Assembly: GCA_001820175.1 (NCBI GenBank)
Contig: MHOT01000012.1
Span: 124 to 64,123 of the forward strand
Length of the DNA stretch: 64,000 bases
Direction: 5' to 3'
Origin: Candidatus Staskawiczbacteria bacterium RIFCSPHIGHO2_02_FULL_42_22
Lineage (GTDB): Bacteria; Patescibacteriota; Minisyncoccia; Minisyncoccales; Staskawiczbacteraceae
Shown here: positions 8,541 through 64,000 of the stretch, in pieces
Layout: each line of letters begins with the position of its first letter
Position numbering within the stretch: position 1 is the stretch's first letter
Made by a program: the position numbers and the translations under genes
The notes under the pieces: generated by a model
Told to the model about the DNA's origin: nothing
The model's database searches: none
What the model saw: only the letters and a program-made list of their open reading frames with translations

Positions 8541-8686
8541 TAGATTGCTTCGTCGTCACGCCTGCGGGCGCAACTCCTCGCAATGACGGGGGACACAGAA
8601 TTCGCGTCATTGCGAGGAGCCCGCAGGCGACGAAGCAATCTAACGGTGAACGGAGATTGCTTCGCTGCGGCTCGCAATGACGGATT
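8541..8686. repeat. GC-rich palindromic element (GTCATTGCGAGG...GAAGCAATCT...AGATTGCTTC...CCTCGCAATGAC family), tandem pair
   Basis: Nested inverted repeats read directly: cgtcattgcgaggagcccgcaggcgacgaagcaatctaacggtgaacggagattgcttcgctgcggctcgcaatgacgg. Confidence 0.7.
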
Positions 8687-15451: not shown

Positions 15452-15550
15452 CTCGTCGTCATTGCGAGCGAGCGGCCGCAGCCGCGAGCGCGGCAATCTC
15501 CTTTTTTTTACGGGGATTGCTTCGGGCCTGCGGGTCCTCGCAATGACGAG
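15452..15550. repeat. GC-rich palindromic element overlapping the 3' end of yidC
   Basis: cgtcgtcattgcgagcgagcggccgcagccgcgagcgcggcaatctcc...ggggattgcttcgggcctgcgggtcctcgcaatgacgag. The yidC stop codon (15508) lies inside the element. Confidence 0.65.
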
Positions 15551-20469: not shown

Positions 20470-20617
20470 ACATACACCCACCGTCATTGCGAGGAGCGCG
20501 CACGCGACGCGGCAATCTCCACCACCAAACGACGACGGAGATTGCCATGGCTGGCCAGACGCGAGGCGTAATTTGTCGCAACAAATTCGCCCCGTCTCCG
20601 GCCTCGCAATGACGGGA
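20470..20617. repeat. GC-rich palindromic elements (2 units)
   Basis: ccaccgtcattgcgaggagcgcgcacgcgacgcggcaatctcc...ggagattgcc...gcctcgcaatgacggg. Confidence 0.65.
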
Positions 20618-31609: not shown

Positions 31610-32254
31610 GTGGAAAAAATAATTACTAAAACCTTTCGTCAAACCCAGGAAGTCGGCCAAAATTTCGCGGATGAAATTCTATCTTCTGATTCTCAAAAAA
31701 CGGCGGTGATTTTGGCGTTGAGGGGTGATTTGGGTGCCGGAAAAACCACGTTTTTGCAGGGCTTTGCAAAAGGCCTGGGAATTATTGAAGTGGTGAATAG
31801 TCCGACGTTTGTTATTATGAAGAAATTCAAAATCGCTGAATTGCGCGGAAATTTACCCTTCGGCCTCGCTCAGGGCGGGCGCGGAAGGGACGCGGAAACG
31901 AAACCGCGCGGCGGCCCCGCGGGGCCGCCCGCCCGCCCGTCATTGCGAGCCGTGCCCAGTGGGGCGCGGCGTGGTCCCGATGAATTTATCAAGATAAATT
32001 CATACGAGGATCCTCGATGGCAAAGCCATCGGGACAATCCAGCGTTTAAATTTTTCTACCACTTCGATTTATATCGCCTCGAAAGCGAAAAGGACTTGGA
32101 GTTTTTGAATTTCCAAGAAATAATTTCAAACCCAAAAAACATCATTGCCATCGAATGGCCGGAAAAAATCGGCAAATTATTGCCTAAAAATAGCATTTCA
32201 ATAATATTCAAACATTTAGAAGAAAATAAAAGAGAGTTGATAATTCATAGATAA
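31610..32254 (+). CDS. tsaE: tRNA threonylcarbamoyladenosine biosynthesis protein TsaE, carrying an in-frame repeat-element insertion
   Basis: Walker A ILALRGDLGAGKTTF; SPTFVIMKKF ... HFDLYRL motifs. About 55 extra codons lie between them (GLAQGGRGRDAETKPRGGPAGPPARPS...). Confidence 0.75.
   Translation: MEKIITKTFRQTQEVGQNFADEILSSDSQKTAVILALRGDLGAGKTTFLQGFAKGLGIIEVVNSPTFVIMKKFKIAELRGNLPFGLAQGGRGRDAETKPRGGPAGPPARPSLRAVPSGARRGPDEFIKINSYEDPRWQSHRDNPAFKFFYHFDLYRLESEKDLEFLNFQEIISNPKNIIAIEWPEKIGKLLPKNSISIIFKHLEENKRELIIHR
31855..32042. repeat. GC-rich palindromic element inserted in frame within tsaE
   Basis: gcccgcccgtcattgcgagccgtgcccagtggggcgcgg ... ggtcccgatg...gaggatcctcgatggcaaagccatcgggacaatcc. 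Same sub-motifs as copies at 18895 and 38755. Confidence 0.65.
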
Positions 32255-38424: not shown

Positions 38425-38860
38425 ACCCACTACCGTCATTGCGAGGAGCCCCGAACCACAGTGAGGGGCGACGAAGCAATCTAATAACGAATGGAGATTG
38501 CTTCGCTGTGGCTCGCAATGACGAGAGAAAAACCATTATTCGCCAAGCTCTAATTAAAACCCCTCACACCCCCGATGTCATTTACGACGCGCACGATCGG
38601 GAATCCAGGGGAAAATCTTCTGGATCCCGGGTCAAAAGTCCGGGATGACAACGAGAGGCGTGAGGGGCTATTTTTGGTAATTTTGAGTATGGCAAATAAT
38701 CCCCTCAATCAGTCATTGCGAGCCCACAGGCGTGGCAATCTCGCTTCATTGAATCTAACTGGATTGTCCCGATGGTGGAACCATCGAGGATCCTCGATCA
38801 CATCGGGACTTCGGGTTTGCGAACCCTCGCAATGACGATGCGCGTGGGGGATGCCTCGGT
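38425..38860. repeat. cluster of GC-rich palindromic elements (4 units, including an intact copy of the unit split at 22925)
   Basis: ccgtcattgcgaggagccccgaaccacagtgaggggcgacgaagcaatct...; gatgtcatttacgacgcgcacgatcgggaatccagggg...cccgggatgacaacgagaggcg; cagtcattgcgagcccacaggcgtggcaatctc...attgtcccgatggtggaaccatcgaggatcctcgat. Confidence 0.7.
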
Positions 38861-39946: not shown

Positions 39947-40226
39947 CGTCATTACGAGGGGATTGTAATACCTGAAGCAATCTCGCATAATTACATAAAA
40001 CGAGATTGCCGCTCGCTTTGCGAGCAAAGCTCCTCGCAATGACGATGGGGGGGGTGTGAATGGTCACCCCTCAAAGTAACTGCTCACTGAACATGAAAAA
40101 TAAGCCCACTTACCTCTCGTCGTCATTGCGAGGAGCCCCGAGCCGAATCGAGGGGCGACGTGGCAATCTGGTCGTTTTGTACGGGGATTGCTTCGGGCCT
40201 GCGGGCCCTCGCAATGACGAGAGGCG
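39947..40226. repeat. GC-rich palindromic elements (2 units)
   Basis: cgtcattacgaggggattgtaatacctgaagcaatctcgc... and cgtcgtcattgcgaggagccccgagccgaatcgaggggcgacgtggcaatct...ggggattgcttcgggcctgcgggccctcgcaatgacgag. Confidence 0.7.
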
Positions 40227-45917: not shown

Positions 45918-48017
45918 TTACTCATTTTTCAATTTTTCTAATAAATCGCGGATTTTCGCTGCCCGTTCAAAATCCATATTTTTGGCGGCGATTTTCATTT
46001 CTTTTTCCAATAACTTTTTATCCTGCACGGCGTCAAATTCTGAAATAACATCTTCTTTTTTGGAAAACCCCCAATCGCGTACATCTTTGATGATGGCCGT
46101 GGGAGTAATACGATGTTTTTTATTGTATGCTTCCTGAATTTTTCTTCTGCGGTTTATTTCATCAATGGCCGATTTCATGGAACCAGTAATAGAATCGCCA
46201 TACAAAATAACCCTTCCATACTGGTGGCGCGCCGCCCGGCCCATGGTTTGAATTAAGGTGGTTTTATTCCGCAAAAACCCTTCTTTGTCGGCATCTAAAA
46301 TGGCAACCAATGCAACTTCGGGCAAGTCCAACCCTTCTCGCAATAGGTTAATTCCTACGAGAACGTCAAATTTTCCCTGTCGGAAATTTTTTAACACCTC
46401 GGGCCGCTCCATCGTTTTTATTTCTGAATGCAGGTATTGGGCTTTGACGTTTCTTTCTGCCAGGTAATCAGAAATTTCTTCAGCCAGGCGTTTGGTCAAA
46501 GTAATTACCAGCACACGGTGTTTTTTGGCCACCTCTTTTTTAATTTCGGCCAGCAGGTCTTTAATTTGGTTTTCGGTTTTTTTCACTTCTATGGAAGGTT
46601 CGAGTAACCCGGTTGGCCTGATAATTTGTTCAATCACCTCTTTGCCGGATTTTTGAAGTTCGTAATCAGCTGGTGTGGCCGACACATAAATTGACTGTTT
46701 TTCCCGTTCGGTAAATTCCTGGAACCTTAGGGGCCGATTATCAATGGCCGAAGGCAGGCGAAAACCAAAATCGATCAAGGTTTCTTTGCGTATTTTATCT
46801 CCAATGGCCATGGCTTTAATTTGAGGAAGCGAAATGTGGGACTCGTCGATGAAAATTAAAAATCCGTCATTTGTGTTGTCTGAGATTGCCACGTCGCCGC
46901 GCGCCCGCGGGCGCGCGGCTCCTGAGTCGGGAACTCCCGTTACGCGGGAAGTTCTCGCGACTTTGCGCAATGACGAAGAACGGGTGGCATAATTAAAATA
47001 ATCAACCAAAGAAAATGGCGGGGTTCCTGCTTTTCTGAATTCCAATTGGCTGGAATAATTTTCAATGCCCTGGCACCAACCGGTTTCTTTGAGCATTTCC
47101 AGGTCGTAGTTAGTTTTTTGCTCCAAGCGTTGGTATTCCACTAATTTATTTTGTTTTTTTAATTCTTTGAGCCGTTCTTGTAATTCCAGTTTTATATTTT
47201 CAAGGGCAATGGGAAGGGTGTCTTGGGGCGCGGCCCAGAAGGTGGCGGGGTATAGTGTGAAGCTTGAATCTTGTATCTTGAAGCTTGTATTCGGGCCACT
47301 TTGTGAAACGGAAATTTTCTGGATGGTATTACCATTAAATTCTATCCTTAATATTTTTTCTCCGGTCACCAAATATATTTCAACTATTTCTCCGCGCACC
47401 CGAAAGGTGGCCGGTTTAAAATCAATATCATTTCGTTTGTATTGCAGTAAAATAAGGTGGGAAATAAAATCCTTGCGGGTTATTTTTTGATTTGGTTTTA
47501 TATTCCAACTAACTTTTTGGTAGTTTTCCGGCGACCCAATGTTATAAATACAACTTACGGATGCCACCACAATAACATCTTTTCGCTGCAGTACATCTTG
47601 GGCGGCGGAATGTCGCAGGCGGTCAATTTCCTGGTTTATCTTGGCATCTTTTTCTATATAGGTATCGGTCTGGGGAATATATGCTTCTGGTTGGTAGTAA
47701 TCGTAATACGATACAAAATAGTGCACGCCATTGTTGGGAAAAAATTCCTTCATTTCTTGGTAAAGTTGCGCGGCCAGGGTTTTGTTACAAGCTACTATAA
47801 GAGTAGGTTTTTGGTATTTGGAAATGACTTGGGCCATGGTAAAAGTCTTGCCGGATCCGGTAACGCCCAAAAGCACCTGGTGTTTTTTGCCTTTTTTTAA
47901 ATTTTCGGTCAGTTTTTTAATGGCCTGGGGCTGATCGCCCGTGGGGGTGTATTTTGATATTATTTTGAATTCCATGGTAGTATATGTGTAGCGTGAAGCG
48001 CATAGCGCAGAACGCAA
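45918..48017 (-). CDS. uvrB: excinuclease ABC subunit B, carrying an in-frame repeat-element insertion
   Basis: Walker A GVTGSGKTFTMAQVI, helicase motifs, C-terminal UVR domain. There are ~36 extra codons (TRSSSLRKVARTSRVTGVPDSGAARPRARGDVAISD) between PPFSLVDYF and the FIDESH motif. Confidence 0.85.
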   Translation of the reverse strand: MRSALCASRYTYTTMEFKIISKYTPTGDQPQAIKKLTENLKKGKKHQVLLGVTGSGKTFTMAQVISKYQKPTLIVACNKTLAAQLYQEMKEFFPNNGVHYFVSYYDYYQPEAYIPQTDTYIEKDAKINQEIDRLRHSAAQDVLQRKDVIVVASVSCIYNIGSPENYQKVSWNIKPNQKITRKDFISHLILLQYKRNDIDFKPATFRVRGEIVEIYLVTGEKILRIEFNGNTIQKISVSQSGPNTSFKIQDSSFTLYPATFWAAPQDTLPIALENIKLELQERLKELKKQNKLVEYQRLEQKTNYDLEMLKETGWCQGIENYSSQLEFRKAGTPPFSLVDYFNYATRSSSLRKVARTSRVTGVPDSGAARPRARGDVAISDNTNDGFLIFIDESHISLPQIKAMAIGDKIRKETLIDFGFRLPSAIDNRPLRFQEFTEREKQSIYVSATPADYELQKSGKEVIEQIIRPTGLLEPSIEVKKTENQIKDLLAEIKKEVAKKHRVLVITLTKRLAEEISDYLAERNVKAQYLHSEIKTMERPEVLKNFRQGKFDVLVGINLLREGLDLPEVALVAILDADKEGFLRNKTTLIQTMGRAARHQYGRVILYGDSITGSMKSAIDEINRRRKIQEAYNKKHRITPTAIIKDVRDWGFSKKEDVISEFDAVQDKKLLEKEMKIAAKNMDFERAAKIRDLLEKLKNE
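46882..46976. repeat. GC-rich palindromic element inserted in frame within uvrB
   Basis: gagattgccacgtcgccgcgcgcccgcgggcgcgcggctcctgagtcgggaactcccgttacgcgggaagttctcgcgactttgcgcaatgacga. Confidence 0.65.
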
Positions 48018-54782: not shown

Positions 54783-54786
54783 CATC

Positions 54787-54818
54787 AAAAGCCGCCGCGC
54801 TAAAGCGCGGCGGCTTTT
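54787..54818 (+). terminator. rho-independent terminator
   Basis: aaaagccgccgcgctaaagcgcggcggctttt. Confidence 0.6.
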
Positions 54819-55077
54819 GATTTACTAAAAGTTATCCACAGCCAGATGCTTGACATGGTTTTTTGAGGTGATATGATGGCGGTAGATGAACCTTTTAGAA
54901 GATTATCACAATCTTCAAAAAAGGGATATCAATTCGCTCCGCTCATTCAAAATACAACCCCCAAACAAACCCAAAAAAACACCACAACCCCTCAAACATA
55001 TCAACAGGGCTTTCTTCGGAAAGTCTTTTTGCGTATATGGGGCCAGTGTTTGGATCTTGGTGAATAATAATTTTTCC

Positions 55078-56284: not shown

Positions 56285-56465
56285 GGGTATGCAGCGTAAT
56301 CCTAATCTCCGTTCGTCATTGCGAGGCCGGAGACGGGGCGAATTTGTTGCGACAAATTACGCCTCGCGTCTGGCCAGCCGTGGCAATCCCCGTCGTCGTT
56401 TGGTGGTGGAGATTGCCGCGTCGTCCTTCGCCCTGGCTCAGGACTCCTCGCAATGACGGGAGGTG
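56285..56465. repeat. GC-rich palindromic elements (2 units)
   Basis: ccgttcgtcattgcgaggccggagacggggcgaatttgttgcgacaaattacgcctcgcgtctggcc...gtggcaatcc...ggagattgccgcgtcgtcc...cctcgcaatgacggg. Confidence 0.65.
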
Positions 56466-60440: not shown

Positions 60441-60445
60441 ATTAA

Positions 60446-60483
60446 GAAAATACCGCACGGCCCATGGGCCGTGCGGTATTTTC
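60446..60483. terminator. bidirectional terminator between ogt and rplT
   Basis: gaaaataccgcacggcccatgggccgtgcggtattttc. Confidence 0.7.
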
Positions 60484-60522
60484 TTGGTTTATTGGGATTC
60501 GTGAGTTAGTTGTGGCAATTCG

Positions 60523-61790: not shown

Positions 61791-61866
61791 TCCTTGTCAT
61801 TCTCGGGCTTGACCCGAGAATCCAGAGTTATTCTTGCTGGATTCCGGGCTTTGGCGGGAATGACAT
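61791..61866. repeat. GC-rich palindromic element between infC and ssrA
   Basis: ccttgtcattctcgggcttgacccgagaatccagagttattcttgctggattccgggctttggcgggaatgacatgtgg. Confidence 0.6.
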
Positions 61867-61867
61867 G

Positions 61868-62217
61868 TGGTGGAGATGCCGAGATTGAACTCGGGTCCAA
61901 TAATTTTTTCAAAATAATTCTACAAATGTATTCTGTTTTGTTGTTTGGATATCAAATAAGAAACAGACAAAATTTTTAATATCCTAATCCTCTTAATTTC
62001 AATAATTTTCCGAGGAGAAAAATTATCTATCCTAATAATATAACACCCTTGGTCCGCCTATTAGGAGTCGACGGCAAGGATGCAGCACTAAGCGTATGCT
62101 AATGCTGGTTGCTTATTAAATAAATTAGCAATTATGTTTTTTCTGAAAGTTTAGCCAGATTTCAGAATACTGGATTTGCTTATTTTGAAAGGAACTATTG
62201 TCGAAGCTCACATCCCC
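61868..62217 (-). ncRNA. ssrA: tmRNA (SsrA), one-piece, CCA encoded
   Basis: Minus strand reads 5'-GGGGAUGUGAGCUUCGACAAUAG...GGACCCGAGUUCAAUCUCGGCAUCUCCACCA-3'. The 7-bp acceptor stem GGGGAUG/CAUCUCC has a G3-U pair, and there is a T-arm CCGAG-UUCAAUC-CUCGG. Candidate tag frame GCU AAU UUA UUU AAU AAG CAA CCA GCA UUA GCA UAC GCU UAG (ANLFNKQPALAYA). Immediately downstream of smpB. Confidence 0.75.
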
Positions 62218-62218
62218 A

Positions 62219-62722
62219 TTATTTTAACGCTCGTTGAATGTCGCGCTGGACGTCTCGTTTTTTAATTTTCTCTTTTTTATCAAATTTCTTCTTACCGCGA
62301 GCCAGAGCGAATTCGAGTTTTATCCTACCATTTTGCTCGTAAACTTTCAAGGGGATGAGCGAAAAACCGCGCTCGTTCACTTTACCCATAAGGTAATTAA
62401 TTTCTTTTTTATTTAATAGCAACTTGCGTGGTTGTTCAGGATTATAATCGGCTGGCGCATTTTTGGGCTGATAGGGAGGAATTTTAGCGCCGATGAGCAG
62501 TGGTTCGGCGGCGGCCCGAGGGTGGGAATTTCCGCCTGCGAGCGGAAAATTCTCGCGTCCAGCCGGGCCGCCGCCGCGAATCACCACATACGCCCCCGCC
62601 AAATGCATGTGCCCCGTTTTGATGCTTTTTACCTCTTGGCCAATCAAAACCAGCCCGGCTTCATATTTTTCCAGGATTTCGTAGTCAAACGTGGCCTTCT
62701 TATTTTCAGAATAAATTTCCAT
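62219..62722 (-). CDS. smpB: SsrA-binding protein SmpB, carrying an in-frame GC-rich palindromic insertion
   Basis: ATFDYEILEKYEAGLVLIGQEVKSIK...KLLLNKKEINYLMGKVNERGFSLIPLKVY. About 21 extra residues (GPAGRENFPLAGGNSHPRAAAEP) lie between VVIRGG and LLIGAKI. Confidence 0.85.
   Translation of the reverse strand: MEIYSENKKATFDYEILEKYEAGLVLIGQEVKSIKTGHMHLAGAYVVIRGGGPAGRENFPLAGGNSHPRAAAEPLLIGAKIPPYQPKNAPADYNPEQPRKLLLNKKEINYLMGKVNERGFSLIPLKVYEQNGRIKLEFALARGKKKFDKKEKIKKRDVQRDIQRALK
62507..62576. repeat. 70-bp GC-rich perfect-ended palindrome inside smpB (in frame)
   Basis: gcggcggcccgagggtgggaatttccgcctgcgagcggaaaattctcgcgtccagccgggccgccgc. Confidence 0.65.
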
Positions 62723-62826
62723 GGCTTCATACTATCAGTTTTTTTTCCATCTGAAACTATTGACAAATACTATAGTTTATTATAAAATTCCATGGGAACA
62801 ACAATTCCTTTTTTCTTGGGGGAATC

Positions 62827-63921: not shown

Positions 63922-64000
63922 TGTCATTGCGAGCGGCGGCCAGTGGGCCGCCGCGTGGCAATCTCGTCCAATAACAGACCTGTCCCTAAATAAGATTTTA
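63922..64000. repeat. GC-rich element followed by start of another family-C element
   Basis: gtcattgcgagcggcggccagtgggccgccgcgtggcaatctcg, then gacctgtccctaaataag (same terminus as the copy at 28062). Confidence 0.5.

What the first reader, a model, noticed from the sequence alone, without database searches (positions are those of the whole stretch)
62507..62576. Perfect-ended 70-bp GC palindrome inserted in frame inside smpB
SmpB is otherwise canonical. It has ~21 extra residues (GPAGRENFPLAGGNSHPRAAAEP) between the strands corresponding to VVIRGG and LLIGAKI, where E. coli has only EAF. The DNA of the insert is a palindrome with 11-bp perfect ends gcggcggcccg/cgggccgccgc. The gene sits directly upstream of the tmRNA gene it serves.
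Basis: partly seen in the sequence, partly recalled or inferred. Interest (0 to 1): 0.7.

Follow-up and report, generated by a model that had tools for sequence, protein, structure and literature searches.

The report
Selfish GC hairpin inside smpB gene
A 71-base GC-rich DNA palindrome sits in frame inside the ribosome-rescue gene smpB of a Candidate Phyla Radiation (CPR) bacterium and adds a floppy 21-residue loop; it is most likely one of many hairpin repeats that litter this genome and its relatives, a Rickettsia-like case of selfish DNA inside essential genes rather than a new SmpB function.

Summary
smpB (62219-62722, minus strand) contains a palindrome at 62506-62576 with perfect 13-nt arms. 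It has 74% GC against 39% for the window. It is in frame and replaces a 2-residue beta-turn with 23 residues. The tmRNA gene starts 1 nt after the stop codon.

The genome is Candidatus Staskawiczbacteria RIFCSPHIGHO2_02_FULL_42_22. Of the 120 closest SmpB proteins, 87 have the plain 4-residue loop. The other 33 carry inserts of 1-21 extra residues at this loop; this one is the longest. Most of the 16 distinct insert DNAs examined are themselves GC-rich hairpins, and they belong to at least seven unrelated sequence types. For most insert-bearing genes, the nearest relative lacks an insert.

A re-assembly that is otherwise 100% identical lacks 36 nt of the palindrome, bounded by a GGCGG direct repeat.

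The window also holds 31 GTCATTGCGAG repeat ends (0.5 expected). uvrB and tsaE carry in-frame units of that family. The inner module of the smpB insert recurs in two of those units.

AlphaFold2 models the insert as disordered on a canonical SmpB fold.

Verdict: a translated, tolerated and unstable hairpin repeat. The closest analogue is the Rickettsia palindromic elements. The mobilising mechanism is unknown.

The parts
62219..62722 (-). smpB coding sequence, 167 aa (relatives are typically 146 aa)
   Evidence: ORF list. 100% match to the SsrA-binding protein of Ca. Staskawiczbacteria RIFCSPHIGHO2_02_FULL_42_22, Pfam PF01668. The top 20 Foldseek hits in the PDB are all SmpB.
62506..62576 (.). 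71-nt GC-rich palindrome. Codons G50-A72 are 62507-62575; one flanking base on each side comes from the native Arg49 and Glu73 codons.
   Evidence: Inverted repeat I1, fold z = -3.9, GC 0.74, unmatched block in the PDB alignments.
62506..62518 (.). Left perfect arm CGGCGGCGGCCCG (encodes ...RAAA on the coding strand)
   Evidence: The 9-mer GCGGCGGCC occurs 6 times in the window against 0.25 expected, including in the repeat unit at 63933-63954 and in the tsaE insert at 31908.
62564..62576 (.). Right perfect arm CGGGCCGCCGCCG (encodes GGGP on the coding strand)
62524..62557 (.). Inner hairpin module GGGAATTTCCGCCTGCGAGCGGAAAATTCTCGCG
   Evidence: 85% identical over 34 nt (E = 0.004 against about 380 kb of loci) to the inner hairpin of a GATTGC...GCAATGAC repeat unit about 200 nt beyond the window end (L001 1523-1554). 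The same module, more diverged, lies in the uvrB insert at 46910-46959 (72% over 53 nt).
62537..62572 (.). 36-nt segment missing from an otherwise 100% identical contig (L001). The alternative placement is 62532-62567, because it is bounded by the 5-nt direct repeat CCGCC (GGCGG on the coding strand).
   Evidence: blastn of L001 against the window gives 1433 and 784 nt at 100% identity with a 5-nt overlap. The L001 product is P0002, 155 aa, loop RGGGNSHPRAAAEP.
61868..62217 (-). tmRNA gene (tag ANLFNKQPALAYA), starting 1 nt after the smpB stop codon
   Evidence: ARAGORN. Rfam RF00023, 119.8 bits.
63923..63963 (+). Intergenic repeat unit GTCATTGCGAGC-GGCGGCCAGTGGGCCGCC-GCGTGGCAATC, whose core hairpin has the same stem as the outer arms of the smpB palindrome
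46869..46994 (-). 42-aa in-frame insert in uvrB, made of one GTCATTGCG...GCAATC repeat unit with nested hairpins
   Evidence: Translation. Query residues 342-383 are unmatched between residues 329 and 331 of UvrB 2fdc. 105 of 109 parsed homologues have 4 residues at this site.
31832..32053 (+). In-frame insert of about 74 aa in tsaE that contains GC hairpins and a GTCATTGCGAG end at 31939
   Evidence: Translation. Query residues 75-148 lie between residues 70 and 76 of TsaE 5np9. Repeat ends are listed.

Best explanation
The palindrome is a copy, or a composite derivative, of the short GC-rich hairpin repeats that are scattered through this AT-rich CPR genome and its relatives. It lies in the DNA that encodes the tip of the beta-hairpin just after Tyr45, which corresponds to E. 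coli Tyr55. Its length is a multiple of three and GC-rich palindromes rarely contain stop codons, so it is read through. The result is a disordered 23-residue loop rich in Gly, Ala, Pro and Arg on an otherwise normal SmpB. It persists because this turn is one of only two places in the small, heavily contacted protein where extra residues are tolerated. It has no function of its own. It is unstable, growing by nesting of modules and shrinking by slippage between short direct repeats. Shown: the palindrome exists. Shown: it is absent from most relatives. Shown: other hairpins recur at the same loop. Shown: repeat units lie in frame in uvrB and tsaE. Shown: the insert shares modules with those units. 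Shown: a 36-nt shorter allele exists. Shown: the structure model has a disordered insert on a canonical fold. Inferred: that the insert is translated, that it is neutral, which way the 36-nt change went, and how the hairpins spread. For the spreading mechanism, a transposase acting on single-stranded hairpins without target duplication is plausible but unproven.
For: (1) Of the 120 closest SmpB proteins, 87 have a 4-residue loop and 33 have 5-25 residues at the same loop; this one is the longest. (2) DNA for 16 distinct inserts at this loop shows that most are GC-rich perfect or near-perfect hairpins (z about -3 to -5, GC 0.56-0.94 in loci of GC 0.35-0.43). They fall into at least seven unrelated sequence types. 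(3) For most insert-bearing genes, the nearest gene by nucleotide identity outside the loop has no insert: L068 is 89% identical to an empty gene versus 73% to the nearest filled one, L082 86% versus 73%, L072 87% versus 77%. (4) In 115 distinct loci, 17 of 19 insertions of 3 aa or more lie at this loop and 2 at the loop after helix alpha3. All are in frame except L039, which contains a gap. (5) The hairpin CGCAACGCTTCGCGTAGCGATGCG lies in the smpB loop of L010, L072 and L082, but directly 5' of the tmRNA gene in L029, L064, L118 and L008/L070. It is therefore a dispersed element. (6) GTCATTGCGAG occurs 31 times in the window against 0.5 expected. The units share fixed ends and variable nested GC hairpins of 27-74 nt. 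Such units lie in frame in uvrB and tsaE. (7) The inner module and outer stem of the smpB insert recur in those units. (8) L001 is 100% identical except for a 36-nt in-frame loss between GGCGG repeats, and it keeps one half of the inner module. (9) In the AlphaFold2 model, residues 52-69 have pLDDT below 50 and lie between strands 45-49 and 73-77. The rest matches solved SmpB with target-normalised TM up to 0.83. (10) Fe-BABE probing of E. coli SmpB lists cleavage of rRNA or tmRNA from residues 20, 22, 28, 52, 76-80, 93-101 and 119, and none from 53-75 (PMC2175365).
Against: No second full-length copy of the 71-nt element was found in the window or in about 380 kb of related loci; only its modules recur. 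The match of the inner module to the uvrB unit is weak on its own (E = 0.22). The insert lacks the GTCATTGCGAG/GCAATC ends of the main family. No transposase was found, but only 10 window ORFs were scanned. No target-site duplication is visible in the filled-versus-empty comparison, so transposition is not demonstrated. The 36-nt shorter allele is known from a single contig and could be a PCR or sequencing artefact caused by the hairpin. Translation and neutrality are untested. The insert begins 5 residues after Tyr45, whose E. coli counterpart stacks on tmRNA A86 (PMC8363625), so an effect on function cannot be excluded.
Confidence: 0.75

Rival explanations
1. Local origin without any mobile element. 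The hairpin arose in place by polymerase template switching (snap-back inverted duplication) and slippage on the GC-rich Arg-Gly-Gly codons of the turn (CGC GGC GGC). It then grew by further palindrome-extending events. The loop is a hotspot because of its own sequence.
For: Many inserts begin with native-like CGC GGC GGC and are followed by its exact reverse complement GCC GCC (L009, L007, L002, L067). The left arm of the window insert is the reverse complement of the right half that L001 retains. No target-site duplication is seen and no transposase was found. No full second copy of the 71-nt element was found.
Against: Several inserts bear no relation to the flanking codons and match dispersed repeats elsewhere: the CGCAACGCTTCGCGTAGCGATGCG hairpin 5' of tmRNA in other species and the inner module shared with units in uvrB and beyond the window end. 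The uvrB and tsaE inserts carry the fixed ends of a 31-copy family.
Confidence: 0.15
2. The hairpin is a functional nucleic-acid structure, for example a processing, stability or pausing signal in the smpB-ssrA co-transcript. It is kept for its fold, and the encoded peptide is incidental.
For: Palindromy rather than peptide sequence is the shared feature of inserts across species. smpB and the tmRNA gene are contiguous, so they are probably co-transcribed. A related hairpin sits directly 5' of the tmRNA gene in other species.
Against: The insert is absent from 87 of the 120 closest relatives and scattered on the tree. The same kind of hairpin lies in uvrB and tsaE. There is no U-tract, so it is not an intrinsic terminator. 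No Rfam family matches the window other than tmRNA. It lies in the first half of the ORF, where cleavage or protection from 3' exonucleases would not yield a useful smpB mRNA.
Confidence: 0.05
3. The extra loop is a native, selected extension of SmpB that contacts a CPR-specific feature of the ribosome or tmRNA.
For: The loop sits on the strand that follows Tyr45, the counterpart of E. coli Tyr55, which positions the resume codon. CPR ribosomes are unusual (background knowledge). The full-length allele is the common one, found on 13 contigs.
Against: Neither the sequence nor the length is conserved; loops range from 4 to 25 residues and belong to unrelated peptide types. The insert is predicted to be disordered. 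A 12-residue shorter allele exists in the same population. The peptide composition is what a GGC/GCC palindrome yields when translated.
Confidence: 0.03
4. The insert is not part of the protein. Either it is removed from the RNA or bypassed by the ribosome, or it is an assembly artefact.
For: Strong hairpins promote ribosomal bypassing in phage T4 gene 60 and in yeast mitochondrial 'byp' elements (background knowledge). Palindromes can confuse assemblers; L039 is broken at this site.
Against: About 20 independent inserts are all multiples of 3 and free of stop codons in frame, although the tblastn detection did not depend on gene calls. There is no stop codon after a take-off codon and no matched take-off/landing pair. 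Identical sequence was found in three independent assemblies.
Confidence: 0.02

Closest known systems
Rickettsia palindromic elements (RPEs; Ogata et al. 2000 Science 290:347 and 2002 Genome Res 12:808, as summarised in PMC10969869)
   Same: Both are palindromic repeats present in many copies in a small genome. Both are inserted in frame into unrelated housekeeping genes and read through as extra peptide segments that are compatible with the host protein's fold. Neither shows an obvious function or target duplication.
   Different: RPEs are about 100-150 bp, fall into ten defined families, and are known from Rickettsia (Alphaproteobacteria). The elements here are 21-71 nt (units up to 74 nt), strongly GC-rich in a 39% GC genome, modular and nested, and occur in a CPR/Parcubacteria lineage. 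One protein loop has been occupied repeatedly by different hairpins. Sequence relatedness to RPEs was not tested.
REP / REPIN elements mobilised by RAYT (IS200/IS605-like Y1) transposases
   Same: Both are short GC-rich imperfect palindromes of 20-40 nt. Both are often arranged as inverted doublets, occur in tens of copies, and combine fixed ends with variable stems. No target-site duplication is seen.
   Different: REPs are extragenic by definition and carry a conserved 5' tetranucleotide such as GTAG. Here several copies are intragenic and in frame, the fixed end is GTCATTGCGAG, and no RAYT gene was found in the part of the window that was scanned.
Mobile GC clusters and 'byp' elements of yeast mitochondrial genomes (from background knowledge, not checked here)
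   Same: Both are short GC-rich palindromic clusters that spread in a very AT-rich genome and can lie inside protein-coding genes. Their presence or absence varies between strains.
   Different: Those elements are organellar and eukaryotic. Byp elements are skipped by the ribosome, whereas the reading-frame statistics here argue for translation.
Bacterial MITEs (Correia, ERIC, BOX, Nezha)
   Same: Both are non-autonomous repeats with terminal inverted repeats, and both occasionally create in-frame fusions with host ORFs (PMC10969869).
   Different: MITEs are usually 100-400 bp with target-site duplications and a recognisable parent IS. None of these features was seen here.

Membership tests
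SmpB (SsrA-binding protein, PF01668) | Sequence and fold of the SmpB beta-barrel body plus a basic C-terminal tail | tested here: met
   PF01668 is assigned to the 100% identical protein P0001. phmmer E = 1e-33 to T. maritima SmpB 7ljp. The AF2 model's top 20 PDB hits are all SmpB.
SmpB (SsrA-binding protein, PF01668) | Partner tmRNA gene present | tested here: met
   tmRNA at 61868-62217 (-), Rfam 119.8 bits.
Rickettsia palindromic elements (RPE-type protein-coding palindromes) | Palindromic repeat inserted in frame in a protein-coding gene and absent from orthologues | tested here: met
Rickettsia palindromic elements (RPE-type protein-coding palindromes) | Multiple related copies in the same genome, including in other ORFs | tested here: inconclusive
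   The GTCATTGCGAG family has 31 ends in the window and in-frame copies in uvrB and tsaE. The smpB insert shares only its inner module and outer stem with them. No second full copy was found.
Rickettsia palindromic elements (RPE-type protein-coding palindromes) | Sequence similarity to RPE families 1-10, size about 100-150 bp, Rickettsia host | tested here: not met
   The size is 71 nt and the host is Ca. Staskawiczbacteria. Direct sequence comparison with RPE consensus sequences was not possible with these tools.
REP/REPIN-RAYT | Extragenic location | tested here: not met
   The insert lies inside smpB. Related units lie inside uvrB and tsaE.
REP/REPIN-RAYT | Short imperfect palindromes, frequently as inverted doublets | tested here: met
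   Units of 27-74 nt, mostly as +/- pairs such as 15458/15547, 40122/40218 and 56315/56457.
REP/REPIN-RAYT | Cognate RAYT (Y1 transposase) gene in the genome | not testable with these tools
   Only 64 kb of the genome is available. Ten ORFs scanned against Pfam gave no transposase hit.
MITE | Target-site duplication flanking the element | tested here: not met
   Filled-versus-empty comparison: L082 reads GGA|36 nt|GAA and L112 reads GGA|GAA, with no duplicated bases.
Intrinsic terminator / attenuator | GC hairpin followed by a U-tract | tested here: not met
   No terminator-like site was found in 62200-62760 on either strand. The hairpin is followed by GAACCACUGCUC.
Programmed translational bypass (T4 gene 60 type) | Matched take-off and landing codons, with a stop codon right after take-off | tested here: not met
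   The frame is open across the whole insert and contains no stop codon.

The most novel reading that the evidence does not exclude
Staskawiczbacteria, and perhaps CPR bacteria more widely, carry an undescribed class of very short, modular, GC-rich hairpin elements that move or are regenerated often enough to have colonised the same beta-turn of SmpB independently at least five to eight times, and also loops of UvrB and TsaE. This would be a second, independent 'protein-coding palindrome' system after Rickettsia. It would have a real site preference and would grow by nesting at hairpin apices. It could be a general source of the loop insertions seen in CPR proteins.
Probability: 0.4. Interest if true: 0.65.

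Novelty: new member of a known kind. Interest (0 to 1): 0.45.

Why it matters
If the reading is correct, essential genes of an ultra-small CPR genome (smpB, uvrB, tsaE) tolerate and keep exchanging selfish hairpin DNA. Three cases in 64 kb suggest dozens per genome. [quoted passage not shown] It provides a natural insertion-tolerance map of SmpB: one dominant permissive turn and one minor one. It also warns that indels in marker genes of CPR MAGs may be repeat insertions rather than phylogenetic signal. Finally, it flags sites where assemblies break (L039) or differ (L001). It does not point to a new trans-translation mechanism.

Tried and rejected
1. Full copies of the 71-nt element were searched for with 13-mers and with blastn, in the window and in about 380 kb of related loci. 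Only the element itself and its modules were found.
2. Rfam at gathering thresholds over the whole window returned only tmRNA.
3. The terminator and promoter scan around smpB found nothing in the insert.
4. Pfam on 10 ORFs near repeat units or near smpB found no transposase.
5. Literature searches for CPR or Patescibacteria together with palindromic, REP or hairpin insertions, and for the motif GTCATTGCGAG, found nothing relevant.
6. Ogata 2002 (PMC186582) is not held in the library, so RPE features are cited second-hand from PMC10969869.
7. I looked for published contacts of E. coli SmpB residues 59-62 in PMC8363625 and found none; only Tyr55 and Tyr24 are discussed.
8. Assembly artefact was rejected.
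9. Bypass or RNA excision was rejected on the reading-frame statistics.
10. L039 looks like a larger, frame-breaking insertion at the same loop, but it contains 10 N, so it was left unresolved.

Full report
**Observation**

The ORF at 62219-62722 on the minus strand encodes a 167-aa SmpB. The tmRNA gene lies at 61868-62217 on the same strand, 1 nt after the smpB stop codon (ARAGORN; Rfam RF00023, 119.8 bits).

Inside smpB there is a palindrome with perfect 13-nt arms at 62506-62518 and 62564-62576. The 45 nt between the arms form an imperfect inner hairpin. The coding-strand RNA folds at -50.9 kcal/mol, z = -3.9, and none of 200 shuffles folds as well. GC content is 0.74 in a window that averages 0.39.

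Codons G50-A72 (62507-62575) replace a 2-residue turn. In alignments to solved SmpB structures, query residues 3-49 and 73-166 match and the block between them does not.

The same allele is found on 13 contigs from independent assemblies. The three I compared are identical over 1704 nt. This rules out an assembly artefact.

**Source organism and comparison with relatives**

The protein is 100% identical to the SsrA-binding protein of Candidatus Staskawiczbacteria bacterium RIFCSPHIGHO2_02_FULL_42_22, a CPR/Parcubacteria MAG.

Among the 120 closest homologues (67-93% identity), 87 have a 4-residue loop of the form R-xx-EP. The other 33 have 5-25 residues at exactly this loop, and the window's loop is the longest.

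I obtained DNA for 137 related loci. In 115 distinct smpB genes, 17 of the 19 insertions of 3 aa or more lie at this turn and 2 lie in the loop after helix alpha3. All are in frame except L039, which contains a run of N.

**The inserts are DNA hairpins, not a conserved peptide**

I examined 16 distinct insert DNAs at this loop. Most are GC-rich perfect or near-perfect hairpins, with GC 0.56-0.94 in loci of 0.35-0.43 and z about -3 to -5. A few (L005, L060, L090, L097) fold weakly.
- GGCGGCGCC-CGC-GGCGCCGCC occurs in L009, L007 and L011.
- GCGCCGCCGCGCGCGGCGGCGC occurs in L067.
- CGCCGGGC...GCCCGGCG occurs in L006.
- GGGGACCCAC...GTGGGCACCCC occurs in L068.
- CGCAACGCTTCGCGTAGCGATGCG occurs in L010, L072 and L082.
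- A type that encodes PSTSLR occurs in L060.
- The window's own type makes a seventh.

For most insert-bearing genes, the closest gene by nucleotide identity outside the loop is one without an insert. L068 is 89% identical to an empty gene but 73% to the nearest filled one. L082 is 86% versus 73%, and L072 is 87% versus 77%. The loop has therefore been gained or lost many times.

The clearest filled-versus-empty pair is L082 against L112. It shows 36 nt inserted between GGA and GAA with no target-site duplication.

The L010/L082 hairpin also occurs directly 5' of the tmRNA gene in L029, L064, L118 and L008/L070. In L118 and L008/L070 it carries further insertions nested at its apex. It is therefore a dispersed element and not a local oddity of smpB.

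**Context in this genome**

GTCATTGCGAG occurs 31 times in the window against 0.5 expected. The units have fixed ends, GTCATTGCGAG and GCAATC, around a variable GC hairpin. They are 27-74 nt long and often form inverted doublets.

Two more genes in the window carry such units in frame.
- uvrB has 42 extra residues between positions 329 and 331 of the B. caldotenax structure. Of 109 parsed homologues, 105 have none. The two closest homologues carry different, shorter inserts at the same site, one of which reads VIASPRKGVAIS, a minimal unit.
- tsaE has about 74 extra residues.

The smpB insert lacks the fixed ends but shares modules with the family.
- Its outer stem GCGGCGGCC occurs 6 times in the window against 0.25 expected. 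It forms the core hairpin of the unit at 63923-63963 and also appears in the tsaE insert.
- Its inner module GGGAATTTCCGCCTGCGAGCGGAAAATTCTCGCG matches the inner hairpin of a unit about 200 nt beyond the window end (85% over 34 nt, E = 0.004). It also matches, more weakly, the corresponding part of the uvrB unit.

**Instability**

Contig L001 comes from another assembly of the same aquifer population. It is 100% identical to the window over 1433 and 784 nt but lacks 36 nt inside the palindrome. The missing segment is bounded by the 5-nt direct repeat GGCGG. The product is the 155-aa protein P0002.

L001 retains one half of the inner module. I therefore read it as a slippage deletion of the full palindrome rather than as a precursor. 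This direction is an inference, and an artefact caused by the hairpin during PCR cannot be excluded.

**Effect on the protein**

AlphaFold2, run with the relatives as its alignment, gives a canonical SmpB body. The top 20 PDB hits are all SmpB, with target-normalised TM up to 0.83. Residues 52-69 have pLDDT below 50 and lie between strands 45-49 and 73-77.

Tyr45 corresponds to E. coli Tyr55, which stacks on tmRNA A86 to set the resume codon (PMC8363625). The insert starts five residues later, at the far end of that strand.

Directed hydroxyl-radical probing of E. coli SmpB lists cleavage of rRNA or tmRNA from residues 20, 22, 28, 52, 76-80, 93-101 and 119, and none from 53-75 (PMC2175365). 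This is consistent with a solvent-facing turn. I could not confirm that residues 59-62 were among the 80 positions tested, and I could not measure distances in the ribosome complexes.

**Interpretation**

The best-supported reading is a translated, tolerated and unstable hairpin repeat. Insertions accumulate at this turn mainly because the other loops of SmpB contact the ribosome or tmRNA. A sequence preference of the hairpins for this site cannot be excluded. How the hairpins spread is unknown. The absence of target duplication fits transposases that act on single-stranded hairpins, but it also fits template switching.

The main rival concerns origin only: local snap-back duplication of the CGC GGC GGC turn codons. 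The simplest GGC/GCC hairpins support it. The inserts that match dispersed elements elsewhere contradict it.

I consider the remaining readings unlikely, for the reasons given under each rival. These are a functional RNA hairpin, a selected protein loop, bypass or excision, and artefact.

**Comparison with known systems**

The closest analogue is the Rickettsia palindromic elements, which are palindromic repeats inserted in frame in many housekeeping genes (PMC10969869). The present elements differ in host phylum, size (21-71 nt against about 100-150 bp), GC-richness, modular nesting, and repeated occupation of one loop.

They resemble REP/REPIN sequences in size, palindromy and doublet arrangement. 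They fail the extragenic criterion, and no RAYT transposase was found. I found no description of such elements in CPR bacteria.

I file the finding as a new member of a known kind. It has moderate interest for CPR genome biology and low interest for trans-translation itself.

Noticed in passing
window 46869-46994 (inside uvrB 45918-48017, minus strand): uvrB has a 42-aa in-frame insert just before the DESH motif. The insert is one GTCATTGCG...GCAATC repeat unit with two nested hairpins. The two closest UvrB relatives (P0121, P0123) carry different, shorter inserts at the same site, and 105 of 109 other homologues carry none.
   Followed up: partly
window 31832-32053 (inside tsaE 31610-32254, plus strand): tsaE has an in-frame insert of about 74 aa between the SPTF motif and the YHFDLYRL motif. 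It is built from GC hairpins, a GTCATTGCGAG end at 31939, and an AT-richer palindrome that also occurs in the unit near 38836.
   Followed up: partly
whole window, e.g. 8577-8681, 15458-15547, 20483-20613, 38435-38836, 40122-40218, 56315-56457, 63923-63963: A repeat family has the fixed ends GTCATTGCGAG and GCAATC around variable GC hairpins, with units of 27-74 nt. There are 31 ends against 0.5 expected, mostly as inverted doublets like REPINs. Rfam has no match, and I found no description in the literature.
   Followed up: partly
window 62217-62221: The smpB stop codon is 1 nt from the mature 5' end of tmRNA. RNase P cleavage of a co-transcript would therefore leave an smpB mRNA that ends right at its stop codon. 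Slight 3' trimming would turn it into a non-stop mRNA, which would be a substrate of the system it encodes, so a feedback loop is possible. In relatives (L029, L064, L118) a spacer of about 330 nt separates the two genes.
   Followed up: no
window 61797-61865: Another palindromic element with the ends GTCATTC...GAATGAC lies directly after the 3' CCA of tmRNA. The called infC ORF (208-212 aa) runs through it and into the tmRNA gene, so the annotated N-terminus of IF3 is probably spurious.
   Followed up: no
L039 1640-1840: smpB of another MAG is interrupted at the same loop by at least 170 nt, including 10 N, and the reading frame changes. This is either a larger insertion or a scaffold break at the hairpin.
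   Followed up: partly
L023 about 1780-1810; L038 about 1790-1830: There is a second, rarer insertion site in SmpB, in the loop after helix alpha3. L023 has YVGGGAGL there and L038 has DSTSACRRRD.
   Followed up: no
L029 2228-2263; L064 1934-1968; L118 1935-1982; L008 790-895; L070 1930-2040: The GC hairpin CCCGCCCGCAACGCTTCGCGTAGCGATGCGGGCGGG abuts the 5' end of the tmRNA gene in several species. In L118 and L008/L070 it carries extra sequence nested at its apex. The same core hairpin lies in the smpB loop of L010, L072 and L082.
   Followed up: partly
L007 321-389; L082 1969-2052: Extra fragments of SmpB coding sequence lie near the intact gene: an N-terminal 23 aa upstream in L007 and a C-terminal 29 aa downstream in L082. 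These suggest local duplications or rearrangements around smpB.
   Followed up: no
L057 1635-1652: In a Clostridia MAG, the smpB reading frame shifts within the same beta-turn, with only 17 nt between the two tblastn segments. This may be a sequencing error or a real frameshift.
   Followed up: no
window 54784-54821 and 60444-60485: Two perfect palindromes with 18- and 20-bp arms and 2-nt loops have AT-rich outer parts (ATCAAAAGCCGCCGCGCT..., AAGAAAATACCGCACGGCCC...). They lie between genes and look like bidirectional terminators rather than members of the repeat family.
   Followed up: no
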